From: Terracidiphilus sp.
Lineage (GTDB): Bacteria > Acidobacteriota > Terriglobia > Terriglobales > Acidobacteriaceae
Length of the DNA: 64,000 nucleotides
Direction: 5' to 3'
NCBI GenBank assembly: GCA_049515995.1
Contig: JBEKTO010000004.1
Location: 30,042 to 94,041, forward strand
The notes under the pieces: generated by a model
The model's database searches: none
The model's input: only the letters and a program-made list of their open reading frames with translations
Told to the model about the DNA's origin: nothing
Shown here: one piece after another, positions 43,025 to 57,378 of the stretch
How positions within the stretch are numbered: position 1 is the first letter of the stretch
Layout of the letters: every line of letters starts with the position of its first letter
Program-made: the position numbers and the translations under genes

Positions 43025-44275
43025 CTACCAGAACGGATGCCCGAAATAGCTGAGCAGCGAGAGCGCGATCAGCCCGGCTCCCAGCAGCGCCTGAATTCCC
43101 GAGACGGTGCGGAGCCAGCCGCGGGCGCGGATATCGAATTCGCGCGGCATCATCATGCGCATCCACTGGCTGCCGTCAAAACCCTCAACTCCGATGGTGA
43201 AGATGCTCATGAGGCTGAAGAAGAGGGCTTTCAGGAGCGCTTGCAATTCCAGTCCCGGCCGGCGAATGAGGCTATGCCATACTTGCGAGGTCTCTGCCTC
43301 CAGCGCCGGAGCTGCTTTTATCGCCGCGGAGCGCGGAGGCACCACGGAGATGCGCGTGACCTGCTCCTTGGCCGTGTCATCTGCAACGCTCTTGCCGCTC
43401 ATGACCAGGTAAAGGCCGGCCTTCTTCATCTCAAAGTGCATGGCAACCCAGTAGATGAGCGTGCACAGCGCGCACAACATCCCAACGATCTTCAACGGAC
43501 GCAGCGGGTCGGCTCCCCATGCGCAGGTCCAGTCGAAGAGCAGCCGCTGCGCCGCATTTTCCTTATGACGGTGATAGGCGCGGTTTACCTCGCGGCCCGC
43601 CTGCTCAAAGCCCGCGTCGAGCAGAGCGTTTCTGAGGCTCACAATGGGCTCGGGGTCTTTTCCGTAGCGAAGGTCGGCCAGGTGCTGTGCCGTGCCGATC
43701 TGCGAAGGCCCAGGGCCGGCCGAGGGTTGAAACAAGACATTCTTCAGCTCCGCGCCTTCCAACTCGGCGCCGGTGAGCACCGCGTCCTGAAGGTCCGCGC
43801 CGGCCAGGTTGGCGTTGGTCAGGTCCGCGTCCGTCAGGTCGGCGTTGGTCATGCGCGCGCCATTCAGCTTCGCGCCGGGGAGGTGAATGTCGCCCCCACC
43901 CAGGTAGACCCCCTTCAGATGCGCGCCGTTCAGATTCGCCCGGCGCAGGCTGGCTTGAGTCAGGTCGGTCTGGCCCTGGTCGGGGCTGTTCAGGTTCGCC
44001 GCTGTCAGGTCCGCGCCGTCGAGGTTGGCCTGGGTCAGGTCCAGTCCTCGCAGGTCTCGATTGGCCAGGCTCGCCCCATGCAGATCCGCATGCGTCAGCT
44101 CGCCCTGCGTTCCTTCGCGGCCACCGCTGTTTACCCACTTGGTGTTTTCGCTCAGGATGCTATCCAGCTCGGCCTGGGAGCGCACGGTCCCGGTGGCGTC
44201 TTTCCATGTCCACGGTTCGACGGCTGCCGCGCGGACCGCCAGCACAAGGCATAACAGCAACAGACCTTTTTTCAT
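43025..44275 (-). CDS. Pentapeptide-repeat protein with C-terminal transmembrane region
   Basis: Signal peptide; A[D/N]L-x repeats; three to four hydrophobic segments at the C-terminus. Confidence 0.8.
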   Translation of the reverse strand: MKKGLLLLCLVLAVRAAAVEPWTWKDATGTVRSQAELDSILSENTKWVNSGGREGTQGELTHADLHGASLANRDLRGLDLTQANLDGADLTAANLNSPDQGQTDLTQASLRRANLNGAHLKGVYLGGGDIHLPGAKLNGARMTNADLTDADLTNANLAGADLQDAVLTGAELEGAELKNVLFQPSAGPGPSQIGTAQHLADLRYGKDPEPIVSLRNALLDAGFEQAGREVNRAYHRHKENAAQRLLFDWTCAWGADPLRPLKIVGMLCALCTLIYWVAMHFEMKKAGLYLVMSGKSVADDTAKEQVTRISVVPPRSAAIKAAPALEAETSQVWHSLIRRPGLELQALLKALFFSLMSIFTIGVEGFDGSQWMRMMMPREFDIRARGWLRTVSGIQALLGAGLIALSLLSYFGHPFW

Positions 44276-44795
44276 GGTGAGCGTGATTATAGCCAGAGCG
44301 GGGCGGGAAAGTGGAGGAGTTTTTTGCGTTTGAGCGCAGTTGAAGAGGAAAGCTGCGCTGCCGCATGATGCTCCGGATCGGCTCGTTATCGGCATAGACG
44401 CGCCACTCCGCGACCTTGCCATCCAAGATGAACACGCGGAAGGCGGCCGGCGTCTTCCAGTGGTTTTCCGGCCGGAGTTTTCCGCCGGACGCATGGGGCG
44501 GGGTCCCCATCGGCAGGTCTTCGTCGATGGGATGACAGTAGGTTCCCTGCGCCTCGCCCAGCATCACCACCAGAGGGCCGTCGCAGAGGGTTTCCTCCAC
44601 GGCAATGGAGTAATCCGGAACCATGCGGAAGTACGCGGCCCACGCGGCCCGCATCTTCTCCCGGCCCTCGACCGCATTGCCCAGCGAATCGACAAAACGG
44701 TGCTCGGGCGCCATCCACTCCGCCAGCGCGTCCACATCCTGCCGGTTGATGGCCCGCACGAAGGTGCGGGCGACGGATTCGGGTGAATCGGTCAT
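44160..44795 (-). CDS. SnoaL/NTF2-like protein
   Basis: FVRAINRQDVDAL, H.FVDSLG, AAF...DGKVAEWRVYAD; tail overlaps the next gene. Confidence 0.75.
   Translation of the reverse strand: MTDSPESVARTFVRAINRQDVDALAEWMAPEHRFVDSLGNAVEGREKMRAAWAAYFRMVPDYSIAVEETLCDGPLVVMLGEAQGTYCHPIDEDLPMGTPPHASGGKLRPENHWKTPAAFRVFILDGKVAEWRVYADNEPIRSIMRQRSFPLQLRSNAKNSSTFPPRSGYNHAHHEKRSVAVMPCAGGPRGSRRTVDMERRHRDRALPGRAG
44499..44537 (-). repeat. REP-like palindrome in frame in the SnoaL gene
   Basis: CCCATCGGC-N8-GTCGATGGG stem; encodes CHPIDEDLPMGTP. Confidence 0.6.
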
Positions 44796-44902
44796 GGGGA
44801 GATTGTACCCACTCCGCGCTTGGCAGTCCTGTATCGTGCATGCCTCCAGACCGTCCTTGAGCGAACTGTCAATGCGGCCCGTCCGCAATGTTCCGCCTTT
44901 TG

Positions 44903-45781
44903 TCAATGGGAATTCAGCCAGTTGTTGAAGGCAAGGCGGTCAAATATGAGTTCTTGCTCATGCTGAATAATCCCCACCCCTTTGTCGGCCAGGAACACTG
45001 CCAGTTGCTCGCCTGATCGCACGATGACACCTGCCGCCTCTGCGAGCGACCCAGCGCCGCTTGTGACGCTGCCTGTGGTGAACAGGAGTATTACCAAGGG
45101 AGAAAATGGCTTCAGCGCTAGGTCCCGAAATATGTCCAAGACGGGCCGAGAGAACGTTCCAGTACGCGCCAGCGACACGGCACCAATAAGCTCTCGAATT
45201 AGATCGGGGCCGACGGCGCGATTTGGATAATGCTTAGCTTGACCGGCAAAAAGGATTACGACATCATGGGCGAGCTTAAGGAATGGCGCGGGAACGTCAT
45301 GTAGCTGCCCAACGCTGAGCTGGCCATAGAAGTCAATTCCTTGGTCGCCCCTTTGCGGCGTAATGCGCGAGTACTTCGCTCCCATCTCGCTCAGTATCCT
45401 AGCTCCAAATACTTCGAACTCGGTAAACGAAAGGGCTCTCATTGCAGATAGGATTGAAGGAGCGTGGAGGCGCTGCTTTTTGACAGCAGATATGTGGGTC
45501 TCATCAGCCTTGAGAACGTAGCAGTACCCTGCCACGACATCAGAATTCGCCCCGATTAGCGCGATTATAGGCGTGGTCCCCGTCCGCTCAGACTCTGCGA
45601 TCCGAGCGGAAATAACCCGCGCCACTGCAGCCTCCACCACCTCCGCGCTCTCTGAAGCCTGAATTGCCGGGAGTCCGAAGTGAGCGTTGAGTTCCTCCTC
45701 AATCGCCGATCGCAACCGACGCGGCGAGCCATTTAAGCCGAGGACATTTTCCAGTCTGTCAACCAGCGATTTCGGTGTCAC
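44903..45781 (-). CDS. Mrr-like PD-(D/E)xK restriction endonuclease
   Basis: LSFTEFE..., RITPQRGDQGID, QAKHY, IRELIGA, FTTG, GEQL; GTG start overlaps upstream stop (GTGA). Confidence 0.78.
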   Translation of the reverse strand: MTPKSLVDRLENVLGLNGSPRRLRSAIEEELNAHFGLPAIQASESAEVVEAAVARVISARIAESERTGTTPIIALIGANSDVVAGYCYVLKADETHISAVKKQRLHAPSILSAMRALSFTEFEVFGARILSEMGAKYSRITPQRGDQGIDFYGQLSVGQLHDVPAPFLKLAHDVVILFAGQAKHYPNRAVGPDLIRELIGAVSLARTGTFSRPVLDIFRDLALKPFSPLVILLFTTGSVTSGAGSLAEAAGVIVRSGEQLAVFLADKGVGIIQHEQELIFDRLAFNNWLNSH

Positions 45782-46881
45782 GGTTCTGGAATCAAGGTCC
45801 GGACCTTATCTATGAGGCTGACGAGTTCTGCCCAAACCTGTCTTGCTCGCTCGTCCGGATCGAGCCAAGCATCTATACTTGGCGCCTTCAGGGCTTGTAG
45901 CGCCACGCCAATTTGGTGTTCCAGAAGGCCAGTCTCGTCGGTTGGGGTCTCAGCCTCCGCTGCTCGCACGGCCTCTTCAAACGCTCGGCTTGGATCAGCC
46001 AGGATCTTAAGCGGGACTGGCTTGTCGACAATGTCCTTAAGCTGCCGGACCTGCTGATTTGCGTTTTGAAGCTTCGCGGGGCGGGTCTCGCCGTCCACCT
46101 CACGGGGGCTTAGTAACTCATAAAAGATACGTCTATTCTCCGCATTCTCGGCACGATAAGTTTGATCCGAAAACTGAAGCCATTCGCGGACTTTCGGTTG
46201 GGAAACAGCCTCGTGAAAGAATGCATACAGACGAGGCAAAGCGTAATCCCCAAACTCTTCGTCGGCCTCCATCTGTTCCAGAGCCTTCGAGGCGCGGTAG
46301 CGGCGCGCCACTTCACGTGCGCTGATTCCAATCCGCTGCGCAACCGGGCCGAATGCACCTTCCTCCTTGTCGTACATTTCTACGACGAGCCGGGCCTGCT
46401 GGTATGGACCCCACTCCTGGATACCAGCGACATGGCGAATAGCCATCAGCGTCTTCTGATATCGACTGCGCTCCTCTTCGGTGCCCAGAATCTCGATTAC
46501 AGATAGTTTCGTGACCGAAGCCAATACCGGTTCGGAGAGAGTCAGGGCGCCGCCCTCGTGGTCGCGGAGGATCATCTTAATCGCAGCAACCCGTCGGTTT
46601 CCCTCCACGACAACATACAGCGGGGGGGTAGAGCCAGACTGATAAGACTCAACAGCTATTTGTTCAAAAGGCACAAAGCCGTTGGAGATAATCGAATCCC
46701 GCAGCGCACCGAGGTTGAATGACGGTGTATCTCTCAGGAATTGGAGAGCGCGATCCTGAACGCCAGGCTCGGCATAGCGGATTCGGCTCACTTCCCTGAA
46801 CCCGCTAAGGTCGTGAAAGCGGTAATTGTTCGGGTCGAGCAAGAGTTGGCCGGGAAAAAGGTCGAGACTATTCACTTGCAT
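45778..46881 (-). CDS. ParB/Srx-like N-terminal domain protein with HTH
   Basis: LLLDPNNYRF, SIISNG, VVEGNRR, RHVAG...W, HTH VAQRIGISAREVARRY. Confidence 0.72.
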   Translation of the reverse strand: MQVNSLDLFPGQLLLDPNNYRFHDLSGFREVSRIRYAEPGVQDRALQFLRDTPSFNLGALRDSIISNGFVPFEQIAVESYQSGSTPPLYVVVEGNRRVAAIKMILRDHEGGALTLSEPVLASVTKLSVIEILGTEEERSRYQKTLMAIRHVAGIQEWGPYQQARLVVEMYDKEEGAFGPVAQRIGISAREVARRYRASKALEQMEADEEFGDYALPRLYAFFHEAVSQPKVREWLQFSDQTYRAENAENRRIFYELLSPREVDGETRPAKLQNANQQVRQLKDIVDKPVPLKILADPSRAFEEAVRAAEAETPTDETGLLEHQIGVALQALKAPSIDAWLDPDERARQVWAELVSLIDKVRTLIPEP

Positions 46882-47047
46882 AGTGACTCCGCCGAAGATG
46901 GATGCATTTCTTCACCCGATCATACTGCATGAGAACAATGCTGAAAGTGTACGCCTCCTGCTTGGCTCAGAACCGGTTCGCCTCGCTTCCCCCGTGCCGA
47001 CCGCACCGCCTACAATGGAGCCTGAACTTCAAACCTCGAGGAAAACC

Positions 47048-47230
47048 ATGCCGCTCTCCGGAGAAGCCATCCGCCTGATGAACTACATTGACGACGTTGC
47101 CGTGACCCTGCGCCGGGTGCTGGCGACCATCCCCACACTCACCGCCGAGGAGCGCGCCCGCGTGGCCGAGCACCTGCTGAACGCCAAGCCCAACGCCGGG
47201 GATGTGGCCGAGGCCCTGGCCGCCAAGTAA
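47048..47230 (+). CDS. Small helical hypothetical protein (60 aa)
   Basis: GAGGA before ATG; high-GC3 codon usage. Confidence 0.6.
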   Translation: MPLSGEAIRLMNYIDDVAVTLRRVLATIPTLTAEERARVAEHLLNAKPNAGDVAEALAAK

Positions 47231-50101: not shown

Positions 50102-50178
<77 letters not shown>

Positions 50179-50190
50179 TGAACCTGTTTT

Positions 50191-50353
50191 AAGTCATCCA
50201 AAGACATCCAAGAGAATAGATAAATCCCCGGTAAACACTGGGGATTTCGTATTTCTACGTCCAAGGGCGTACTATCAAAGCCAAGTTCTGCGGGGGGTAC
50301 TTTCCGGGGTATTTAGTTTTTCAAGGGGGGTACTTTTCTCTGCGGGGGTATTT
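50191..50353 (+). promoter_or_regulatory. attL arm region: 10-bp tandem repeat, hairpin and four GGGG(G)TAYTT arm-type repeats
   Basis: AAG(T/A)CATCCA x2 at 50191-50210; AAATCCCC/GGGGATTT hairpin 50222-50247; repeats at 50293, 50305, 50326, 50344. Confidence 0.6.
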
Positions 50354-50366
50354 GAGGGGCGTTGAA

Positions 50367-51584
50367 ATGTCATTGACGGATACAGAGGTTCGCAGGTCCA
50401 AACCAACTGAGAAGGCGTATCGACTGAGCGATGGTGGAAGCCTGTACCTTTGGGTCACTCCAGCCGGTGGCAAGCTGTGGCGCTGGGCTTACAACCATGA
50501 CGGCAAAGAAAAGCTCATGTCCTTTGGCAAATACCCCGATGTGCCTCTGGCGCTGGCCAGAGAGCGCCACACTGAGGCTCGCAGGTTGCTTGCGGTGGGC
50601 ACCGATCCAATGGCACAGCGGAAGGCTGACAAGACCGCCGCAAAGAGTGCCTCCGAGAATTCCTTCCAGATGGTTGCGGGCCTTTGGTTCGATCACTGGC
50701 GGGTGGATAAGAGCCGCCAGCATGTGGACGCTACACGTCGGCGCATGGCTGCGAACATCTTTCCACTGCTAGGCGCGCGCCCGATTACGGAGATTGAAGC
50801 GCCGGAACTGGTGCTCATGGTCAAAGCGATAGAAGGACGCGGCGCGGCGGACCTGGCAAAGCGGGCGCTAGAGAACACGGGCCAGATATTTCGATTTGCC
50901 ATTGCGCATGGGTACGCGAAACGCAATCCGGCAAGCGAGATTCGCCCTGCTGACGTTCTAAGACCGACGCATAAAACCAATCTTGCCCGCATTGACGCAA
51001 AAGAGTTGCCGGACCTTCTACGCGCGATTGAGGTATACAGAGGGACGCATGTCACCCGCTTGGGATTGAAGCTGATGGCCCTCACTTTTGTGCGCACCAG
51101 CGAATTGATTGGAGCGAAGTGGACAGAGTTCGACATGGACGCTGCCCGGTGGGACATTCCCGCAGAGCGCATGAAGATGCGGACCCAGCACATTGTCCCT
51201 TTGGCCGCGCAAGCAATCGAAGTGCTGGAGATGCTGCGCACGTTGACCGGGGATAGTGAGTGGCTCTTCCCCGGTGATCGTAGCGCCGCAAAGCCCATGA
51301 GCAACAACACGATTCTGATGGCGCTTAAGCGCATGGGCTACAAAGGCAGAATGACGGGGCATGGCTTTCGCGGGCTGGCGTCCACTGTCTTGCATGAGAA
51401 GGGCTATGGGCATGAGCACATCGAATTGCAGCTTGCACACGCGCCGCGCAATGCCGTGAGCGCGGCCTATAACCATGCCTTGTACTTGGAACCGCGCGCC
51501 AAAATGATGCAGGATTGGGCGGATTTTCTAGAGCAAACTCTACGCGGTGGCAAGCTGATTCCGTTTCGCAGCCATGTAGCATGA
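50367..51584 (+). CDS. P4-family tyrosine integrase 1
   Basis: Arm-binding domain (DGGSLYLWV...GKLWRWAY...GKYPDVPLA.AR); catalytic R (RTSEL), HGFR, QLAH, AYN. Confidence 0.95.
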   Translation: MSLTDTEVRRSKPTEKAYRLSDGGSLYLWVTPAGGKLWRWAYNHDGKEKLMSFGKYPDVPLALARERHTEARRLLAVGTDPMAQRKADKTAAKSASENSFQMVAGLWFDHWRVDKSRQHVDATRRRMAANIFPLLGARPITEIEAPELVLMVKAIEGRGAADLAKRALENTGQIFRFAIAHGYAKRNPASEIRPADVLRPTHKTNLARIDAKELPDLLRAIEVYRGTHVTRLGLKLMALTFVRTSELIGAKWTEFDMDAARWDIPAERMKMRTQHIVPLAAQAIEVLEMLRTLTGDSEWLFPGDRSAAKPMSNNTILMALKRMGYKGRMTGHGFRGLASTVLHEKGYGHEHIELQLAHAPRNAVSAAYNHALYLEPRAKMMQDWADFLEQTLRGGKLIPFRSHVA

Positions 51585-51920
51585 AGCGCCGAACCGCTGC
51601 ATCGGCGGGCCGGTTACATTGATGGACTTGTGACGGAATCCAAGGTGACTGTGGGCAACTTCGGAGACGGCGCAGCCTTGCTCACCAGTTGCAACCAATT
51701 GCACAAGCGCACCACCTTGGCTTCCTTGGCACCAGCGACGGGGAGAGGTTTCAACCCGTGCCTGGCGGCGCGCTGTGCGGCATTTTGGCGTGGCGCTGCC
51801 GTTCCTCCATGCCGTCCCCAAAATCTCCGCAGACACCAAAACTTGCGCGGTTTTTCGACCTTGGAGCAGGTTGGAAATAGATGGACGGCATGAGCCTGTC
51901 CCATCACAGGAGAGAGTGCA

Positions 51921-52145
51921 TTGGACAATCTAGAGAAGATTATTCGTCTGCAAGCGGTCAAGGCGCGGTGTGGACTCAGTCGGAGCACGCTTTACAACCG
52001 GATGGCGGCGGGGGAGTTCCCGTCTCCAATATCACTCGGAGCGCGCTCAGTAGGCTGGGTGGAGTCTGAAATCAATGCTTGGATTGCAACTCGAATCAAT
52101 GCAAGTCGGAAGGCCATCCCGAACAAAGATGCAAAGGCTGCGTAA
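51921..52145 (+). CDS. alpA: AlpA family regulator / recombination directionality factor
   Basis: IRLQAVKARCGLSRSTLY..MAAGEFP.PISLG.RSVGW.ESEINAW. Confidence 0.9.
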   Translation: MDNLEKIIRLQAVKARCGLSRSTLYNRMAAGEFPSPISLGARSVGWVESEINAWIATRINASRKAIPNKDAKAA

Positions 52146-52293
52146 GCCCGAAGGGTCACCGTGGCACATGGAAGCGGCGTAGGGGCGCGAGGGAGGGTTA
52201 ACCTTCCTTGTGCATCCTAATTCGCTCCCGCAATGCACCAGCGCGGTTGTAGCCGCGCCGCGATACCCTTAACATAACTTTCAAGGATCGAAC

Positions 52294-53397
52294 ATGAGCG
52301 AATCGAATCCCGCCAATACAAAGCGGGCGCGCGGCGGAACGGGAAATTTCTTCATCGTTGACCAGAGGCTTTGGAAGGCAGTTTGCGATGAGGGCGACAT
52401 AAACGCCGCCGCCGCATGGCTACTGTTGTCGCAAGGGACGGGCGCGAACCAGCGCACGACCGCCTGGTCTGTAGATGCAATCATGCGTTACCTGGGCATG
52501 GGCTATAACCGTGGGAAAGAGGCAATCGACAAACTGATTGCCCTGAGATTCATTCGGTACGGCGAAAAGCACACGCAACGGAAGCCGCGCTATGACCTGC
52601 TTACATTCCCCGAATGGAACGCTCTGATTCACAAGCCCCGCAAGGGTAAGAGTGCAAGCGCGGAAGAGGACCCCGAAAACAACCTCATCTGGCTTCCCAA
52701 CGAACTTATCAAGGCAGCCGACGGCGAAAAACCGCCGATACGTAAGCTGCGGGCGTCTGGTGACCTTTGGGCTCTGCGCCTGTTCGTTGACCTCTACCAT
52801 GAGCACAACCTGAGAGATGACGGGGGAATCACCCGCAAGTTCTTGTGGCTAAAATATGACGCGATGAACCTCGGCGAGCGGGGACCGTACAGGATCATGG
52901 GCTTTAAGCCCGCCGGGAAATGGATAACTTGGGACGGTCCTTTCCGAATTCACCAGTCGCGACCGAAACTGAACCCCGACGCACAACCCACTTGGGATAG
53001 CTTGCATATCCTAGAGCAGACCGGCGTTCTGACGTTCATCCCGCATCTGGTGGAGAACGATACAAAGGCCGCCGAACCAATTCACGCGGTCGGAATCGGC
53101 GGACACAGTGAGCACCCCATCGAAACCCAAATCGGAAACGAGGCGCGCCGTACCGCAGTCGCCATGTGTCAACCCTGGCAGCTCGAACGGGCGCAACGGG
53201 ACGGATTGATTCTGTGTCCGGTAAGCCGGGATTACCCAAACGCTCAATTGGTCGGAATTGCCCGCTTGCATTACAGGCCGCATACGAAACGCACATCCGC
53301 CTGGAGCAGCAATCTGCAATATGCCGGACCTAAATGTGTTGACCATTTCCGACGCATGGCAGCCGAATATGCTGTGCAAGAGGCTGCATTCGCTTAA
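52294..53397 (+). CDS. Hypothetical protein, possible wHTH replication initiator
   Basis: N-terminal WSVDAIMRYLGMGYNRGKEAIDKLIALRFI resembles a wHTH; position after alpA. Function is inferred. Confidence 0.5.
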   Translation: MSESNPANTKRARGGTGNFFIVDQRLWKAVCDEGDINAAAAWLLLSQGTGANQRTTAWSVDAIMRYLGMGYNRGKEAIDKLIALRFIRYGEKHTQRKPRYDLLTFPEWNALIHKPRKGKSASAEEDPENNLIWLPNELIKAADGEKPPIRKLRASGDLWALRLFVDLYHEHNLRDDGGITRKFLWLKYDAMNLGERGPYRIMGFKPAGKWITWDGPFRIHQSRPKLNPDAQPTWDSLHILEQTGVLTFIPHLVENDTKAAEPIHAVGIGGHSEHPIETQIGNEARRTAVAMCQPWQLERAQRDGLILCPVSRDYPNAQLVGIARLHYRPHTKRTSAWSSNLQYAGPKCVDHFRRMAAEYAVQEAAFA

Positions 53398-53410
53398 ACG
53401 GGAGAGAGAC

Positions 53411-53460
53411 ATCAAAGGGGTTCAAGGATAGTTCAAAGAAGAAATCAAAGAGAATCAAAG
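53411..53460 (+). repeat. Five phased (A/T)TCAA(A/G)G repeats, iteron-like
   Basis: Copies at 53411, 53421, 53432, 53444, 53454 (10-12 bp spacing) just after the Rep-like stop. Confidence 0.6.
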
Positions 53461-53901
53461 CCTCTGTAAGCACAAATTCACCCCCAACCCCCTCAAGGGG
53501 GCTAGCGCAGAGGCAAGCTCTGCGCCGTTGGTTCGTAAACTGCTTTTCCTAAGATTGTCCGAACACGCTAAGCGCTTCACAATAGAGCTAACCCATGCTG
53601 CATCCAAGCGTCTGTTTCCCCGATTACTACGAACTCGCAAGCCGCTCAGTGCGGACGGCTGATGCGCCGCAATCCACCGCTAACGCCGCCCGCGCGGAAC
53701 GCCCGCGGCCGGATTTCCAGCGGATTGTGCTCCCGTCTGGCTGTGTACTTTTCCGGCTGCGTCTGCCGCGCGAAAAAGCATTCGGAATGAAGCCAAAATG
53801 CAGGCAGGCTGATTAGAGTCCCCCAGCCCCTTCATGACCAATCATGTTCCTTAAAGGGACCCGGCATTGTGCGCCCCAGTTTGCTGTTGCAGAATCAAAG
53901 T

Positions 53902-56900
53902 GTGCATCCTGTTGAGTCCTATCTCGTCAAACTGGCGGAAATTCGCGCGTCCGGTCATGCCACCGATGAAACGTCCTTCTATCCGGCGGTTGAGGGGCTG
54001 CTCTCGGAAATCGGCAAACGGCTCAAGCCGCGCGTCTCGCCTGTCCTGCAATTGAAGAATCGTGGCGCTGGCCTGCCAGACGGCGGCCTCTTCACACAGG
54101 ATCAACTCAAAAAGAACGCCGTGCCCGACGACTTCACCGTACAGCCGCCGAATCGCGGCGTGGTAGAGGTGAAGGGCCTCGCGGAAGAGACCGGTAAGAC
54201 TGCCCAATCCGAGCAGGTGAAGAAGTATCTGCGCGCCTACGGGCAAGTCCTGCTGACCAATTACCGGGAGTTTCGCGTGGTGGTGATGGGCAAGGACGAT
54301 AAGCCGCGCACCCTGGAGACCTTCACTCTGGCAAAGAGCGAAGCCGCATTCTGGGCGCTGGCTGCGCATCCGCACAAGACAGAAGGCGAAGTCGGCAAGA
54401 TGCTGGAGGAGTTTCTCACCCGCGCCCTGCTCAGTGCCGTGCCCATCACTTCGCCGGACGTGCTGGCCAGCTTTCTGGCTTCCTATGCCCGTGAGGCGCT
54501 GGCTAAGATCGAGCCGCGCTCTTCGCTCAAGGAACTGGAAGACGTGCGCAAGGCGCTGGAAGAGGCGCTCGGCCTCAAGTTTGAAAGCGATCTGGCTACG
54601 GAAAAAGAGAACAAGAAAGGCCAGCATTTCTTCCGCAGTACGCTGGTGCAAACGCTCTTCTATGGCCTGTTCTCCGCATGGGTGCTCTGGAGCCGTGAAC
54701 CGGGCCGCCGCAAGGGAGACAGCTTCGAGTGGAAGTCCGCTGTCTGGTCTCTTCAGGTTCCCATGATTCGCGCCCTCTTCGAGCGCCTGGTAACGCCGTC
54801 GCACGTTCGCTCCCTGGGTTTGGAAGAACTGCTCTCGCTCACCGGCGAAGTGCTGAACCGCGTGGATACCGCAGCTTTCTTCCAGCGATTTGAAGAAGAC
54901 ACCGCTGTCCAATACTTCTATGAGCCGTTTCTGGAGGCTTTCGACCCGGAACTGCGCAAGCAGCTTGGCGTCTGGTACACGCCACGCGAGATTGTGCGCT
55001 ACATGGTGGAGCGCGTGGACACGGTTCTGCGCACGGAACTGGGATTGCCCTCTGGCCTTGCCGACCCCAACGTTTACGTTCTCGATCCCGCCTGCGGCAC
55101 GGGCGCGTATCTGGTGGAGGTGCTGGACCGCATCCATCGGACGCTGAAAGAAGAGCGCGGCGAAGATGCGCTCACGCCGCACCAGCTCAAACAGGCGGCC
55201 AAAGAGCGCGTCTTCGGATTCGAGATTCTGCCCGCGCCTTACGTCATCGCGCACCTCCAGATTGGAATGTACCTGCAACGGGAGAAGGCACCGCTCCTTG
55301 AAGAACAGACCGGCAAGCGGGAGCGGGCTGGCGTGTATCTGACCAATGCGCTCACCGGTTGGGAGCCGCCTGACAAGCAAAAGGCGCAACTGCCCTTCGA
55401 GGAGTTTGAAGAGGAACGCGAGGAGGCCGATACCGTCAAGCGCGACAAGCCCATCCTGGTGGTGCTGGGCAATCCGCCGTACAACGCCTTCGCCGGAGTC
55501 AGTCCCACGGAAGAAGACGGGCTGGTAGAGCCCTACAAAGAGGGACTTATCACGGAATGGGGCATCAAGAAGTTCAATCTCGATGACCTCTATATCCGTT
55601 TCTTCCGTCTGGCCGAAAGGCGCATCGCGGAGAAGAGCCATCGCGGCGTGGTCTGCTTCATCTCCAATTTTTCCTATCTCAGCGAGCCATCTTATGTGGT
55701 CATGCGCAAGCGGCTTCTCAATGGCTTCGATGCGCTTTGGTTTGACTGTTTGAATGGCGATAGCCGGGAGACGGGAAAGCTGACGCCAGAGGGCAAACCA
55801 GACCCCAGTGTCTTTTCTACGGAGAGCAACCGCGAAGGAATTCGCGTGGGAACCGCCATCGGCCTGATGATTCGCCGGAATAAGGCGAAGGGCGATTCTT
55901 CTGTGCATTATCGCGAGCTTTGGGGAACGCGCAAACGCGAAGAGCTTGTCGAGAGCTTGGAAGATACTGCGCTCGAAGGCCGATACGCGAACGCCGCGCC
56001 GACTCATGCCAATCGTTTCTCTTTTCAGCCCCAAGAGGTGAGCGCCGCATACAGCGAATGGCTAAAGATCACTGAGCTATGCGCGGAATCTCCCAGCAAC
56101 GGCCTGATGGAAAAGCGCGGGGGTGCGCTGATTGACATCGACCGCGAAAAGCTGGAAGAGCGGATGCGCCTCTACCATGACAAGAGCCTGGACTGGGATG
56201 CCTACCGGCTGGCATCGTCCACCCTCACCGGCGATTGGTCAGGGTTCGATGCGCGCAAGTTGCGTGCGCGGGCGCTGGACGCGGGATTCCAGATCAGCCA
56301 GATTGTCCGCTATGCTGTGCGCCCTTTCGATACGCGCTGGTGTTATTTCTCAGACATTCCGTCAATCTGGAATCGGTCGCGCCCTGCTCTGTGGGCGCAG
56401 TGCTTTGAGGGGAATTCGTTCCTGCTGACGCGGATGCGTTGTACGGCATCTCCAGAGGGTTTCCCTATCAGTTTCAGCAAGTGCCTTTCGGATGACCATT
56501 ACATTATCCCCGATGCTGTAGCCGTCCCGTTTCTTTTGCAGCATCCGGCCACCAGCATGTTTGCCAGTGAGCAGACTGACGGCAACCTCTCCCAATTGGC
56601 CAGCGATTACCTGCGCAGTCTGAAACTGGGTAACAGCCCGGCGAGCGCCGCGTCCCTTTGGCTGCACACGCTCGCCATCGGCCACAGCCCCGCCTATCTG
56701 GAAGAGAACGCCGACGGCATCCGGCAGGATTGGCCGCGCATTCCGCTGCCGTCTTCGTTGGACCAGTTCAACGCATCGGCGGCGCTGGGGCAGGGTGTGG
56801 CGGATTTGCTGGACACGGAAAACCCTGTAGCGGGCGTGACGGCGGGCGCGCTGCGGCCCGAGTTGCGCTCTGTTGCCGGACTGAAGCGCATGGACGGCAA

Positions 56901-57378
56901 GCCGCTGAACGCAGAAGAAGATTTGCAACTCACGGCAGGCTGGGGACACGCCGGAAAAGAAGGCGTGACCATGCCGGGACGCGGCAAGCTGGTAAGCCGT
57001 GAGCGGACGGCGAAGGAACTCGCCGATCTGGCGCAAGGGCTGGCGGCGCTGGGCATCGAGCAGGATGAAGGCTTGGCGCGTCTGGGCAGTACGGTGGTGG
57101 ATGTGTACTTGAACGACCTCTGCGCATGGACGAACGTGCCGGAAATGGTATGGGAAATCTACATCGGCGGCTATCAGGTGATGAAGAAATGGCTCAGTTA
57201 CCGGGAGTACAGCTTTCTGAAACGACCGCTGGCGTTGGCCGAAGCCGAAGAGGTGCAGGCAATGGCAAGGCGGCTTACCGCCCTCTGTCTTCTCCAGCCG
57301 GAACTCGACGCGAATTACCTCAAAGTGAAGAGCGCATCCTGGCAGGGGCAGCCCGCTCTTCAATCTGCTCAATCGTAG
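53902..57378 (+). CDS. Single-chain restriction-modification enzyme (N6-adenine MTase + type ISP-like specificity domain), no helicase
   Basis: PDG...VEVK nuclease-like N-terminus; GVWYTP, VLDPACGTGAYL, GNPPY; RYAVRPFD, WPRIP, GYQVMKKWL.YR. Confidence 0.85.
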   Translation: MHPVESYLVKLAEIRASGHATDETSFYPAVEGLLSEIGKRLKPRVSPVLQLKNRGAGLPDGGLFTQDQLKKNAVPDDFTVQPPNRGVVEVKGLAEETGKTAQSEQVKKYLRAYGQVLLTNYREFRVVVMGKDDKPRTLETFTLAKSEAAFWALAAHPHKTEGEVGKMLEEFLTRALLSAVPITSPDVLASFLASYAREALAKIEPRSSLKELEDVRKALEEALGLKFESDLATEKENKKGQHFFRSTLVQTLFYGLFSAWVLWSREPGRRKGDSFEWKSAVWSLQVPMIRALFERLVTPSHVRSLGLEELLSLTGEVLNRVDTAAFFQRFEEDTAVQYFYEPFLEAFDPELRKQLGVWYTPREIVRYMVERVDTVLRTELGLPSGLADPNVYVLDPACGTGAYLVEVLDRIHRTLKEERGEDALTPHQLKQAAKERVFGFEILPAPYVIAHLQIGMYLQREKAPLLEEQTGKRERAGVYLTNALTGWEPPDKQKAQLPFEEFEEEREEADTVKRDKPILVVLGNPPYNAFAGVSPTEEDGLVEPYKEGLITEWGIKKFNLDDLYIRFFRLAERRIAEKSHRGVVCFISNFSYLSEPSYVVMRKRLLNGFDALWFDCLNGDSRETGKLTPEGKPDPSVFSTESNREGIRVGTAIGLMIRRNKAKGDSSVHYRELWGTRKREELVESLEDTALEGRYANAAPTHANRFSFQPQEVSAAYSEWLKITELCAESPSNGLMEKRGGALIDIDREKLEERMRLYHDKSLDWDAYRLASSTLTGDWSGFDARKLRARALDAGFQISQIVRYAVRPFDTRWCYFSDIPSIWNRSRPALWAQCFEGNSFLLTRMRCTASPEGFPISFSKCLSDDHYIIPDAVAVPFLLQHPATSMFASEQTDGNLSQLASDYLRSLKLGNSPASAASLWLHTLAIGHSPAYLEENADGIRQDWPRIPLPSSLDQFNASAALGQGVADLLDTENPVAGVTAGALRPELRSVAGLKRMDGKPLNAEEDLQLTAGWGHAGKEGVTMPGRGKLVSRERTAKELADLAQGLAALGIEQDEGLARLGSTVVDVYLNDLCAWTNVPEMVWEIYIGGYQVMKKWLSYREYSFLKRPLALAEAEEVQAMARRLTALCLLQPELDANYLKVKSASWQGQPALQSAQS

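What the first reader, a model, noticed from the sequence alone, without database searches (positions are those of the whole stretch)
44903..46881. Translationally coupled ParB/Srx-like + Mrr-like nuclease pair: candidate undescribed two-gene defence system
Seen: two minus-strand genes overlapping by 4 nt (GTGA), visibly more AT-rich than their neighbours, sitting between ordinary genes with no integrase or methyltransferase. Gene 1 has LDPNNYRF, EGNRR (ParB/Srx NTP-binding-like motif), RH..G...W and an HTH. Gene 2 has an ~100-aa unknown N-terminus and an Mrr-type catalytic core (D.GID...QAK). Known: Mrr enzymes cut modified DNA, and ParB-like domains occur as sensors or nucleases in several antiphage systems. 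I cannot match this exact pair to a named system.
Basis: partly seen in the sequence, partly recalled or inferred. Interest (0 to 1): 0.7.

Follow-up and report, generated by a model that had tools for sequence, protein, structure and literature searches.

The report
ParB-like sensor plus Mrr nuclease cassette
Two overlapping genes, one for a ParB-like DNA- and nucleotide-binding protein and one for an Mrr-type DNA-cutting enzyme, form a small mobile cassette that always travels as a pair across many bacterial phyla; it most likely acts as an unnamed, untested defence against foreign DNA.

Summary
Two minus-strand genes, G1 (45778-46881, 367 aa) and G2 (44903-45781, 292 aa), overlap by GTGA. 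Their GC content is 55-58%, against 60-70% in the flanks.

G1 folds like ParB/KorB/Noc: a ParB N-domain plus an HTH, followed by an extra C-terminal domain. DPNNxR and EGNRR are invariant across the family. G2 has an unassigned N-terminal domain and an Mrr/MspJI-like PD-(D/E)XK core with a complete catalytic set (E123, D150, Q181-x-K183).

In 92 of 93 non-redundant loci from at least 7 phyla, a G2 homologue lies directly downstream of G1. No third gene is conserved. Peat and wetland metagenomes contain alleles of the same locus without the cassette, which bounds it to about 2.2 kb.

The pair is not a complete system in PADLOC v2. G1 shares its whole length with the N-terminal half of PDC-M38A, an untested candidate that fuses this module to an ABC ATPase. 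A distant G1 homologue also sits in the P2-phage defence hotspot.

Flanks are mostly housekeeping genes, but 8 of 46 loci carry a C5-methyltransferase or R-M system nearby.

Best reading: an NTP-gated ParB-like DNA sensor coupled to an Mrr-type nuclease, a new variant of the GmrSD/SspE/Menshen logic. Function is inferred, not shown. Interest is moderate to high.

The parts
44808..46983 (-). Whole cassette (about 2.18 kb): 5' leader, G1, G2 and 3' tail. This is the segment missing from 'empty-site' alleles of the same locus.
   Evidence: Contigs in three DNA runs join 44762-44807 directly to 46984-47024, skipping 2176-2261 bp. In run X5 the joined form has depth 28, against 3.5-4.3 for the pair. 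Nucleotide similarity to the closest homologous locus (L036, 72%) is confined to 44973-46836. The matched sides of the joints are short (26-46 nt), so the boundaries are approximate.
46882..46983 (-). 5' leader with the probable own promoter (TTTCAG-N16-TATGAT, with the -10 box at 46924-46919) and a GGAG ribosome-binding site 7-10 nt before the ATG.
   Evidence: Read directly from the sequence. The consensus scan did not call this promoter. Homologous loci carry their own TATAAT-like boxes but share no operator. A metatranscriptome contig matches 46726-46916 at 100% identity.
45778..46881 (-). G1: a 367-aa ParB-superfamily protein (ParB-like N-domain + HTH + extra C-terminal helical domain). 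Proposed NTP-binding DNA sensor.
   Evidence: ORF. AF2 model, pLDDT 82. Foldseek against PDB puts KorB, ParB and Noc on top (E about 3e-4, probability 1.0, about 250 columns). Foldseek against viral structures finds phage ParB/Spo0J-like proteins. 677 close homologues and 2028 clusters at 50% identity.
46477..46881 (-). G1 ParB/Srx-like N-terminal domain (aa 1-135). Carries DPNNYRF (46816-46836) and EGNRR (46591-46605).
   Evidence: D16, P17, N19, R21, Q42 and E93-G94-N95-R96-R97 are invariant in an alignment of 35 sequences sharing 24-54% identity. EGNRR aligns with the GERR box of Spo0J. 7 of 35 family members hit Pfam ParB_N and 3 of 35 hit GmrSD_N, all weakly.
46192..46476 (-). G1 central region (aa 136-230): the IRHxxGxxxW motif plus the helix-turn-helix. 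This is the most conserved part of the protein.
   Evidence: Mean pairwise identity is 0.80 here, with peaks of 0.86-0.89 at aa 141-160, 181-200 and 221-240. The region aligns structurally to the ParB, KorB and Noc HTH domains.
45781..46191 (-). G1 C-terminal helical domain and tail (aa 231-367). No assigned family. Possibly the surface that contacts G2.
   Evidence: AF2 predicts helices at 247-361, with pLDDT falling to 47-72 after aa 310. The region is conserved in the family and is retained in the PDC-M38A fusion, where distant homologues align to profile positions 8-364. A role in binding G2 is inferred only.
45778..45781 (-). GTGA overlap of the G1 stop codon and the G2 start codon (translational coupling).
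   Evidence: The same 4-nt overlap occurs in 23 other loci and a 1-nt overlap in 5. All gaps are 33 nt or less.
44903..45781 (-). G2: a 292-aa Mrr-type PD-(D/E)XK nuclease with an unassigned N-terminal domain. Proposed effector.
   Evidence: Pfam Mrr_cat, 7e-10. AF2 model, pLDDT 88, pTM 0.83. Foldseek against PDB finds MspJI (8.5e-7), AspBHI (1.2e-4) and FokI.
45437..45781 (-). G2 N-terminal domain (aa 1-115): helices with a beta-hairpin, a winged-helix-like topology. The more variable half of G2.
   Evidence: Secondary structure comes from the AF2 model. Mean pairwise identity is 0.40-0.42, against 0.63 in the catalytic core. There is no Pfam hit. 'Winged-helix-like' is my reading of the topology and was not tested by a domain-level fold search.
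44906..45436 (-). G2 Mrr-like catalytic domain (aa 116-292). Catalytic residues: E123 (45413-45415), D150 (45332-45334), Q181-A-K183 (45233-45241).
   Evidence: These residues are invariant in 28 homologues sharing 49-72% identity with G2. The domain matches the Mrr_cat profile and the MspJI/AspBHI catalytic domains.

Best explanation
The 2.2-kb segment is a self-contained, horizontally mobile two-gene cassette. It most likely restricts foreign DNA (phage or other mobile elements).

G1 is a ParB-superfamily protein. Its N-domain binds a nucleoside triphosphate through the invariant DPNNxR and EGNRR motifs and a near-invariant IRH motif. Its very conserved HTH binds DNA.

By analogy with ParB, KorB and Noc, and with the DUF262 sensors of GmrSD, SspE and Menshen, NTP binding would switch G1 between conformations when it meets a feature of invading DNA.

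G1 is made in fixed proportion with G2 through translational coupling. It would then recruit or release G2, whose intact Mrr-type PD-(D/E)XK site cuts DNA.

The cassette has no methyltransferase. Self and non-self would therefore be told apart by what G1, or the N-terminal domain of G2, recognises, not by host methylation.

**Shown:** gene structure; folds; conserved motifs; strict pairing; mobility and presence/absence polymorphism; reuse of the G1 module in other defence-candidate contexts.

**Inferred:** NTP binding; G1-G2 contact; nuclease activity; the trigger; the defence phenotype itself.
For: 1. **Strict reciprocal linkage.**
   - A G2 homologue lies directly downstream of G1 in 23 of 23 genome loci.
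   - Across all sources, after removing duplicates, the count is 92 of 93. This holds down to about 35% G1 identity.
   - The reverse check starting from G2 gave 2 of 2.
   - No third gene is conserved.
   - G1 and G2 identities fall together across loci, so the two genes are inherited as a unit.

2. **Folds and active sites.**
   - G1 matches ParB, KorB and Noc over the N-domain plus HTH.
   - EGNRR aligns with the phosphate-binding GERR box and is invariant family-wide.
   - G2 matches the Mrr/MspJI catalytic core, with E123, D150 and Q181-x-K183 invariant.

3. **Accessory and mobile.**
   - GC is lower than in the flanks.
   - Homologues with more than 60% identity occur in Alpha-, Beta-, Gamma- and Deltaproteobacteria, Acidobacteria, Chloroflexi and Verrucomicrobia.
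   - Empty-site alleles occur in the same population.
   - Decayed G1 remnants are seen in L026 and L028.

4. **Defence-type company.**
   - The full-length G1 module is fused to an AbiL/AriA-like ABC ATPase in PDC-M38A. That protein is paired with PDC-M38B and sits beside an integrase in P. syringae.
   - PDC systems were nominated because they are embedded in BREX, DISARM or type I R-M loci (10.1101/2024.01.29.577857).
   - A distant G1 homologue, Wphi gp98 (hhalign probability 99.8%), lies in the gpA-cos hotspot of P2-like phages. This is the hotspot Rousset et al. showed to hold anti-phage systems (PMC9122126).
   - 8 of 46 loci with at least 6 kb of flank carry a C5-methyltransferase. In L035 and L011 the pair directly follows a Vsr gene that sits beside such a methyltransferase; L035 also has an intervening 298-aa ORF, probably the restriction enzyme.
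   - Other loci place the pair at a prophage end or beside a RelE/MqsA pair.

5. **No cis site.** No conserved operator or parS-like palindrome travels with the cassette. This argues against a partition role or a simple autorepressor role.

6. **Precedent.** ParB-superfamily NTPase sensors activate linked nucleases in GmrSD and SspE, and are proposed to do so in Menshen (PMC12065111).
Against: - There is no experimental evidence for any activity or phenotype.
- Most neighbourhoods are ordinary metabolic genes such as enolase, ThiC, EPSP synthase and tRNA synthetases. Classical defence-island enrichment is therefore weak.
- The background rate of C5-methyltransferases that I compared against comes from general knowledge. 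I did not compute it.
- G1 is unusually well conserved for an immune sensor: 65% mean pairwise identity, and 80% in the HTH region.
- The position that is the catalytic Glu in ParB (E102 of Caulobacter ParB, whose E102A mutant binds CTP but does not hydrolyse it; PMC8367383) is an invariant Asn in G1. G1 may therefore not cycle like ParB.
- The cassette is nearly absent from plasmids and from phage collections.
- The empty-site joints rest on contigs with short matched sides of 26-46 nt.
Confidence: 0.55

Rival explanations
1. Regulator plus solitary Type IV enzyme. G2 is an ordinary Mrr-like modification-dependent restriction endonuclease that works alone. G1 is only its transcriptional controller, a KorB-like or C-protein-like factor that delays or limits nuclease expression after horizontal transfer.
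For: G1 has a ParB/KorB-type HTH, and KorB is a repressor. G1 comes first in the operon and overlaps G2, as controller genes do in R-M systems. G2 has the two-part Mrr layout of an N-terminal domain plus Mrr_cat. DndB, another ParB-superfamily protein, has been reported as an ATP-modulated repressor (PMC10853773).
Against: No conserved operator or palindrome was found upstream of, or within, about 90 cassettes, even though the HTH is almost invariant. A 367-aa protein with an invariant nucleotide-pocket motif and a conserved extra C-terminal domain is far larger than a controller protein needs to be. The entire G1 module is fused to an ABC ATPase in PDC-M38A, which fits a working part of a machine better than a transcription factor. 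An m5C- or m6A-dependent nuclease would be hazardous next to the C5-methyltransferases seen in 8 of 46 loci.
Confidence: 0.2
2. Addiction module of the toxin-antitoxin type. G2 is a DNA-cutting toxin and G1 is its neutralising partner. The cassette persists because losing it kills the cell, not because it defends.
For: The upstream neutraliser, downstream toxin and 4-nt overlap are the classic type II layout. The cassettes are solitary, sit among housekeeping genes, and show presence/absence polymorphism and decayed remnants. One locus lies beside a RelE/MqsA pair.
Against: G1 is three to four times the size of typical antitoxins. It is more conserved than the putative toxin (0.65 against 0.51 mean pairwise identity), the reverse of the usual pattern. 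It also carries a nucleotide-binding motif and a DNA-binding domain that a simple neutraliser does not need. Many toxin-antitoxin pairs act in phage defence, so this rival overlaps with the main explanation.
Confidence: 0.15
3. Housekeeping or element-maintenance function: DNA partition, or repair/processing of the host chromosome or of a prophage.
For: The fold is that of chromosome- and plasmid-partition proteins. Rousset et al. note putative plasmid partitioning systems in some P2-like phage hotspots. One locus lies next to a terminase.
Against: There is no ParA partner and no parS-like site. The cassette is almost absent from 72,556 plasmids and is found on only one IMG/VR contig. Its distribution is patchy, with strain-level presence and absence. 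A nuclease with an intact active site is always attached.
Confidence: 0.05

Closest known systems
PDC-M38 (untested PADLOC 'phage defence candidate'; Payne et al. 2024, bioRxiv 10.1101/2024.01.29.577857)
   Same: G1 is homologous over its whole length to the N-terminal half of the PDC-M38A profile PDLC04607. The window protein scores 4e-48 against profile positions 16-286. Distant family members score about 1e-55 against positions 8-364. Both have the same ParB-like + HTH + C-terminal domain module and the same DPNNxR, EGNRR and (I/K)RH motifs.
   Different: PDC-M38A continues into an AbiLi/AriA-like ABC ATPase (AAA_15/AAA_21), which G1 lacks. Its partner PDC-M38B is a 286-289 aa protein unrelated to G2 (hhalign probability 0.4%). 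PADLOC would not call the window pair as PDC-M38.
GmrSD, BrxU and SspE (ParB-superfamily DUF262 NTPase + DUF1524 nuclease; Type IV-like restriction)
   Same: The logic is the same: a ParB-superfamily nucleotide-binding sensor followed by a DNA-binding region and coupled to a nuclease, with no methyltransferase of its own. GmrSD also exists as two polypeptides, GmrS and GmrD (from my own knowledge). The sensor-activates-nuclease model is taken from PMC12065111. 3 of 35 G1-family members hit Pfam GmrSD_N weakly.
   Different: The motif is EGNRR, not DGxQR. The DNA-binding part is a canonical ParB-type HTH, not the 'ParBDB' helical domain. The nuclease is an Mrr-type PD-(D/E)XK enzyme, not a His-Me/DUF1524 nuclease. 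The parts are always two separate, overlapping genes.
Canonical ParB, KorB and Noc CTP-dependent DNA clamps
   Same: These are the best structural matches, covering the N-domain plus HTH. A GxRR phosphate-binding box sits at the equivalent place.
   Different: There is no ParA partner and no parS-like site. The catalytic Glu of GERR is an invariant Asn. G1 has an extra C-terminal domain, and a nuclease gene is always attached. Pfam ParB_N does not hit the window protein.
Mrr, MspJI and AspBHI modification-dependent restriction enzymes
   Same: G2 has the Mrr_cat domain with the D...QxK site. MspJI and AspBHI are its best structural matches. It has the same two-domain layout, with a recognition domain at the N-terminus.
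   Different: The G2 N-terminal domain is neither Mrr_N nor an SRA-like domain by sequence. G2 is never found without G1. Dependence on DNA modification is untested.
Menshen (NsnABC)
   Same: Menshen also has a ParB-superfamily sensor with a DNA-binding domain and a nuclease effector. The PDC-M38A fusion (G1 module + ABC ATPase) mirrors NsnA plus NsnB.
   Different: Menshen has three genes, a DUF262-type ParB domain and an ABC ATPase transducer. No Nsn model hits G1 or G2.
PD-lambda-5 (Vassallo et al. 2022)
   Same: The N-terminal 60-150 residues of G1 match the PD-Lambda-5_A profiles (best 3.7e-10). This is the shared ParB-like domain.
   Different: PD-lambda-5 is described as a compact R-M + Abi system with a methyltransferase (PMC9519451). 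G1 covers only the first part of the 430-610-position profiles. It has no methyltransferase, and no PD-Lambda-5_B hit was found.
Wphi gp98/gp96 and relatives in the P2-like phage gpA-cos hotspot
   Same: gp98 is a true G1-family member (hhalign probability 99.8%, E 6e-28, 275 columns). It is followed by an overlapping second gene, gp96, whose GDGGLD motif aligns with the GDQGID motif of G2. The locus is the anti-phage hotspot of Rousset et al..
   Different: Identity to G1 is only about 25%. gp96 has no significant similarity to G2 overall (hhalign probability 0.5%) and no Pfam hit. A C5-methyltransferase (Mth) is adjacent. L-413C-type phages carry the G1-like gene alone. I found no record that these genes have been tested.

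Membership tests
PDC-M38 (PADLOC candidate) | The A protein contains an ABC ATPase (AAA_15/AAA_21, AbiLi/AriA-like). | tested here: not met
   G1 ends at 367 aa and aligns only to positions 16-286 of the 715-position profile. Genuine members (P0366, P0377, P0381, P0504) carry AAA_21/AAA_15 at about aa 390-690.
PDC-M38 (PADLOC candidate) | A PDC-M38B partner gene lies directly downstream. | tested here: not met
   G2 hits no PDC-M38B model at E <= 1. hhalign of the G2 alignment against a genuine PDC-M38B (itself 1.9e-144 to the model) gives probability 0.4%.
PD-lambda-5 | The A protein has a methyltransferase domain, and a B protein is present. | tested here: not met
   Only the ParB-like N-terminus matches (G1 aa 35-200 against the first 200 or so of 430-610 profile positions). 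There is no methyltransferase domain in Pfam and no B hit.
GmrSD / DUF262-DUF1524 Type IV restriction | A DUF262 (GmrSD_N) domain with the DGxQR motif. | tested here: not met
   There is no Pfam hit for the window G1. The motif is EGNRR. Only 3 of 35 family members hit GmrSD_N, weakly (best 1.4e-4).
GmrSD / DUF262-DUF1524 Type IV restriction | A DUF1524 (His-Me) nuclease domain. | tested here: not met
   G2 is Mrr_cat, a PD-(D/E)XK nuclease.
Canonical ParB (ParABS partition) | A ParB N-terminal domain followed by an HTH DNA-binding domain. | tested here: met
   Foldseek top hits are KorB, ParB and Noc, aligned over about 250 columns with probability 1.0. Sequence-level Pfam ParB_N is not met for the window protein and is weak in 7 of 35 relatives.
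Canonical ParB (ParABS partition) | A GERR box with the catalytic Glu. | tested here: not met
   The aligned box is G94-N95-R96-R97, with Asn invariant across the family. The role of the Glu comes from PMC8367383. The alignment itself is short and weak.
Canonical ParB (ParABS partition) | A ParA partner and a parS centromere site. | tested here: not met
   No third gene is conserved. No shared palindrome lies in or near the cassette.
Mrr-family (Type IV) restriction endonuclease | An Mrr_cat domain with the catalytic D...(Q/E)xK residues. | tested here: met
   Pfam PF04471, 39.5 bits against a cut-off of 21. E123, D150, Q181 and K183 are invariant. MspJI and AspBHI are the top structural hits.
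Mrr-family (Type IV) restriction endonuclease | An N-terminal winged-helix (Mrr_N) recognition domain. | tested here: inconclusive
   There is no Pfam Mrr_N hit. The AF2 topology (H-H-H plus a beta-hairpin) is winged-helix-like by eye. No domain-level fold search could be run.
Mrr-family (Type IV) restriction endonuclease | Cleavage depends on DNA modification. | not testable with these tools
   This needs in vitro or in vivo assays on modified and unmodified DNA.
Menshen (NsnABC) | Three genes: a DUF262-ParBDB sensor, an ABC ATPase and an inPIN-nuclease effector. | tested here: not met
   Only two genes are conserved. No Nsn model hit either protein at E <= 1.
Type II toxin-antitoxin | The downstream protein is toxic and is neutralised by direct binding of the upstream protein. 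| not testable with these tools
   Only the gene layout is compatible. The size and conservation pattern are atypical.

The most novel reading that the evidence does not exclude
The pair is the minimal form of a new, widespread family of immune systems. A canonical ParB-type clamp (N-domain + HTH, not the DUF262 type) has been converted into a sensor of foreign DNA, and it licenses interchangeable effectors.

Its natural Glu-to-Asn change would make it a slow or non-hydrolysing 'locked-clamp' NTP switch. The effectors seen so far are an Mrr-type nuclease (here), an ABC ATPase plus PDC-M38B (elsewhere), and gp96-like proteins in P2-type phages.

If true, this would be the first defence system built on the ParB sliding-clamp mechanism itself.
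Probability: 0.3. Interest if true: 0.8.

Novelty: new variant of a known kind. Interest (0 to 1): 0.6.

Why it matters
If the cassette defends, it adds a compact (2.2 kb) two-gene system that crosses phyla to the known bacterial defence repertoire.

It would also link two active fields. One is CTP/NTP-switch ParB clamps. The other is nuclease-based immunity.

The family offers a natural experiment in module exchange: the same about 365-residue ParB-like module is coupled to three different partners. This makes it directly testable how a ParB fold transmits a DNA-sensing event to an effector.

The invariant Asn in place of the hydrolytic Glu gives a sharp biochemical question and an obvious mutant.

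Practically, the family is missed by Pfam for G1 and is only half recognised by PADLOC, so genome annotation would gain a new model pair.

If the cassette turns out to be a regulator plus an ordinary Mrr-type enzyme, or an addiction module, the result would still correct the present annotations ('hypothetical protein' and 'restriction endonuclease').

Tried and rejected
- **Sequence search of solved structures.** Profiles of both proteins gave only chance-level hits: PAL lipoprotein for G1, and MspJI at E 0.3 for G2. Fold comparison was needed instead.
- **Conserved operator upstream of G1.** Shared k-mers in 98 non-redundant upstream regions did not exceed the shuffled controls, apart from the start-codon context.
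- **parS-like palindrome in or near the cassette.** Nothing was shared beyond near-duplicate loci among 89 cassettes.
- **Flanking repeats.** No flanking direct or inverted repeats, target-site duplications or attC-like ends were found. Only short chance repeats appeared, and the empty-site junction shows no duplication by eye.
- **Consensus promoter and terminator scan.** The scan called nothing on the minus strand. The promoter I propose is read by eye and is weak.
- **Third conserved gene.** The small ORFs of 120-160 aa upstream in several loci turned out to be unrelated: RidA-like, Vsr, a radical-SAM fragment, or nothing.
- **Plasmid or phage origin.** Rejected. There is 1 weak partial hit in 72,556 plasmids, none for G2, and 1 IMG/VR contig.
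- **PDC-M38B or Wphi gp96 as G2 homologues.** Rejected for PDC-M38B. Unresolved for gp96, where only a GDGGLD motif aligns.
- **The pair as part of the tRNA-Val integrase island.** Rejected. Three ordinary genes separate them. Two strains with different island cargo carry the same pair. The empty-site deletion covers the pair only.
- **Expression.** Only one 191-nt metatranscriptome contig covers the 5' end of G1. That is too little to claim operon transcription.


Full report
**1. What is in the sequence**

G1 is 45778..46881 (367 aa, ATG start). G2 is 44903..45781 (292 aa, GTG start). The G1 stop codon and the G2 start codon share the four bases GTGA.

GC content over the pair is 0.55-0.58, against 0.60-0.70 on both sides.

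- G1: LDPNNYRF (aa 15-22), EGNRR (aa 93-97), and R149-H150..G153...W157.
- G2: D146-x-G-I-D150 and Q181-A-K183.

Automatic gene callers on the same metagenome contigs start G2 22 codons later. Residues 1-22 are conserved in homologues, with L10 and E11 invariant. The overlapping GTG start is therefore correct.

**2. What the two proteins are**

*G1.* It has no Pfam or NCBIfam hit. An AlphaFold2 model built on 30 homologues has mean pLDDT 82.

Its best matches among solved structures are KorB, ParB from Myxococcus, Caulobacter and Bacillus, and Noc. About 250 columns align with probability 1.0, covering the ParB N-domain plus the HTH domain. Viral predicted structures give phage ParB/Spo0J-like proteins.

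A profile alignment places EGNRR on the GERR phosphate-binding box of B. subtilis Spo0J.

Across 35 family members sharing only 24-54% identity, these residues are invariant: D16, P17, N19, R21, Q42 and E93-G94-N95-R96-R97. R149 and H150 are nearly invariant.

The position that is the hydrolytic Glu in ParB is always Asn in this family. In Caulobacter ParB, the E102A mutant binds CTP but does not hydrolyse it and locks the clamp (PMC8367383).

7 of 35 members touch Pfam ParB_N and 3 of 35 touch GmrSD_N, all weakly. The family is therefore an uncurated branch of the ParB/Srx superfamily.

The most conserved stretch is the central HTH region, with 0.80 mean pairwise identity.

*G2.* It has a Pfam Mrr_cat hit above the curated cut-off. 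Its AF2 model has pLDDT 88 and pTM 0.83. MspJI, AspBHI and FokI are its best structural matches.

E123, D150, Q181 and K183 are invariant, so the PD-(D/E)XK site looks intact.

The first 115 or so residues have no family assignment and are the more variable half. Their predicted topology looks winged-helix-like to me, but I could not test this.

**3. Is the pairing real?**

- A scan of one genome per GTDB species found 29 loci. In all 23 with a complete G1 and downstream DNA, a G2 homologue follows directly on the same strand.
- A metagenome scan seeded with a divergent alignment added 80 loci.
- After removing duplicates, 93 loci have a stand-alone full-length G1 and at least 200 nt downstream. 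Of these, 92 have G2. The exception has only 261 nt of downstream sequence.
- Gaps between the genes are 33 nt or less. 23 other loci have the same 4-nt overlap.
- Starting instead from two G2 homologues, both have a 367-370 aa gene with no Pfam hit directly upstream.
- No third gene is conserved.
- G1 and G2 identities decline together across loci.

The hosts span Alpha-, Beta-, Gamma- and Deltaproteobacteria, Acidobacteria, Chloroflexi and Verrucomicrobia. The wider G1 family comprises 2028 clusters at 50% identity with E <= 1e-3. Nearly all of the 150 best-scoring representatives listed are 345-385 aa long.

**4. The cassette is mobile and accessory**

- Nucleotide similarity to the closest locus stops at the ends of the coding sequences.
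- The window comes from a peat or wetland organism.
- In three of five DNA runs, contigs join 44762-44807 directly to 46984-47024, skipping 2176-2261 bp. In run X5 this joined form has depth 28, against 3.5-4.3 for the pair.
- Strains with and without the cassette therefore coexist. The insert is the two genes plus about 100 nt on each side.
- The matched sides of these joints are short (26-46 nt), so the boundaries are approximate.
- No flanking repeats or target duplications were found.
- Short G1 remnants without G2 occur in L026 and L028.
- A 191-nt metatranscriptome contig matches 46726-46916 exactly. This is compatible with a transcript starting near a TATGAT box at 46924-46919.

**5. 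Context**

Most neighbours are ordinary genes such as enolase, ThiC, EPSP synthase and tRNA synthetases. The pair is therefore usually a solitary islet, not part of a large defence island.

There are recurrent exceptions:
- In L035 the pair follows a C5-methyltransferase, a 298-aa ORF that is probably the restriction enzyme, and Vsr, with a 1-nt gap. Two neighbour ORFs in the pooled scan hit Pfam NotI. L011 has Vsr directly upstream, with a C5-methyltransferase beyond it.
- With an HMM of my own, a C5-methyltransferase is present in the flanks of 8 of 46 non-redundant loci that have at least 6 kb of flank. From general knowledge this is far above one per few megabases, but I did not compute a background rate.
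- In Ancylobacter the pair lies at a prophage end next to the terminase.
- One locus has a RelE/MqsA pair as neighbour.
- In the window itself, tRNA-Val, an integrase and a Type ISP/IIG enzyme lie 3-7 kb away. They belong to a separate island whose cargo differs between strains that share the pair.
- The cassette is almost absent from plasmids and occurs on a single IMG/VR contig.

**6. Relation to known systems**

*PADLOC v2.* It does not recognise a complete system. G1 hits PDC-M38A (4e-48) and, weakly, the ParB-like N-terminus of PD-Lambda-5_A. G2 hits only PDC-S02 and mREase models weakly.

*PDC-M38.* Distant G1 homologues align to positions 8-364 of the 715-position PDC-M38A profile. The 715-738 aa relatives carry an AAA_21/AAA_15 ABC ATPase after the G1-like part.

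In P. syringae and Rheinheimera this fusion protein is followed by PDC-M38B. That protein is unrelated to G2.

PDC systems are untested candidates nominated by 'guilt by embedding' in BREX, DISARM or type I R-M loci.

*PD-lambda-5.* It is a compact R-M + Abi system with a methyltransferase, so it is not the same thing.

*P2-like phages.* Fourteen of them carry a distant G1 homologue. One is Wphi gp98 (hhalign probability 99.8%, E 6e-28). It lies between gpA and cos, the hotspot that Rousset et al. showed to hold anti-phage systems.

gp98 is followed by an overlapping gene, gp96. The GDGGLD motif of gp96 aligns with the G2 catalytic motif, but overall similarity is not significant. A C5-methyltransferase is adjacent.

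*Literature.* Five searches found no description of a ParB-like + Mrr pair. A recent survey of the ParB-CTPase fold does not mention Mrr.

**7. How it most likely works**

The precedent is the ParB-superfamily sensor that activates a linked nuclease through its NTPase activity. This is known for GmrSD and SspE and proposed for Menshen.

I propose the following:
- G1 binds an NTP through its DPNNxR, EGNRR and IRH pocket, and binds DNA through its HTH.
- It changes state on a feature of incoming DNA.
- It then recruits or releases G2, which cuts.

Several observations favour a working partnership over mere transcriptional control: translational coupling, strict co-inheritance, reuse of the whole G1 module as a fusion partner of an ATPase, and the lack of any cis site travelling with the cassette.

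The invariant Asn suggests slow or absent hydrolysis. That would make G1 a switch that stays on once triggered.

None of these steps is shown. My confidence in the defence/sensor-effector model is about 0.55.

The rivals are:
- a KorB-like regulator plus an autonomous Mrr-type enzyme (0.2);
- an addiction module (0.15);
- a maintenance or repair role (0.05).

The very high conservation of G1 and the mostly housekeeping neighbourhoods are the main points against the defence reading.

**8. Verdict**

It is a genuine two-gene module that I found under no name, with defence-like features.

Its sensor module already appears inside one untested PADLOC candidate and in a phage hotspot. Its logic is that of known ParB-superfamily/nuclease systems.

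I rate it a new variant of a known kind, with interest 0.6.

Noticed in passing
window 50102-57378: A tRNA-Val (50102-50178) is followed by a tyrosine integrase (50352-51584), an AlpA-like small ORF (51921-52145), a 367-aa ORF with no family (52294-53397) and an 1169-aa Type ISP/IIG restriction-methyltransferase (53869-57378; PADLOC REase_MTase_IIG 3e-90; Pfam N6_Mtase + Type_ISP_C on the matching contig). A second strain carries different cargo (a 589-aa HNH protein) at the same integrase site. This is a variable integrative defence island 3 kb from the pair.
   Followed up: partly
window 44499-44531 and 47004-47121: Two short stretches flanking the cassette have very high contig depth in peat and wetland metagenomes: up to about 800x and 1770x, against 5-30x nearby. 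Many contigs diverge at their edges. They could be short repeated elements, or highly conserved pieces of the SnoaL-like gene and the 71-aa gene. They are not similar to each other.
   Followed up: no
window 45716-45781: Automatic gene calls on the identical metagenome contigs start G2 at a later codon (270 aa), which removes the overlap with G1. Homologue conservation shows the 292-aa GTG start is right. Public annotations of this family may often be N-terminally truncated.
   Followed up: yes
L118-L121 (P. syringae, Rheinheimera): The complete PDC-M38 candidate system was seen in context. A is a 725-727 aa fusion of the G1-like ParB-HTH module with an AbiLi/AriA-like ABC ATPase. B is a 286-289 aa protein (weak DUF3226) overlapping by 1 nt. 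In P. syringae the system lies directly after an integrase, next to GIY-YIG and kinase/ORC-like genes.
   Followed up: partly
L124 (Escherichia phage Wphi 27594-32684) and L125 (Yersinia phage L-413C): P2-like phages carry a distant G1-family gene in the gpA-cos hotspot. In Wphi it is gp98, with an overlapping gene gp96 (GDGGLD motif, no family) and the C5-methyltransferase Mth. In L-413C and several E. coli P2-like phages the G1-like gene stands alone. This may be what earlier work counted as a 'putative partitioning system' in that hotspot.
   Followed up: partly
L008, L010, L011, L035, L045, L076, L083, L085 (and remnant L028): A C5-cytosine methyltransferase recurs next to the cassette. 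In L035 the order is methyltransferase, a 298-aa ORF (probably the restriction enzyme), Vsr, G1, G2 with almost no spacing, and in L011 Vsr lies directly upstream of G1 with a methyltransferase beyond it. Either the cassette rides with this R-M unit, or there is a functional link to cytosine methylation. The background rate was not computed.
   Followed up: partly
L016 9105-9891: In a Chloroflexi MAG the G2 homologue is split into two frames (aa 1-160 and 184-289 on different frames). This is a frameshift or an assembly error, and possibly a decaying copy.
   Followed up: no
window 47015-47230 and 43025-44275: The immediate neighbours are a 71-aa ORF with no family, transcribed divergently from G1, and a pentapeptide-repeat protein beyond the SnoaL-like gene on the other side. 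Neither is conserved next to the pair elsewhere.
   Followed up: no
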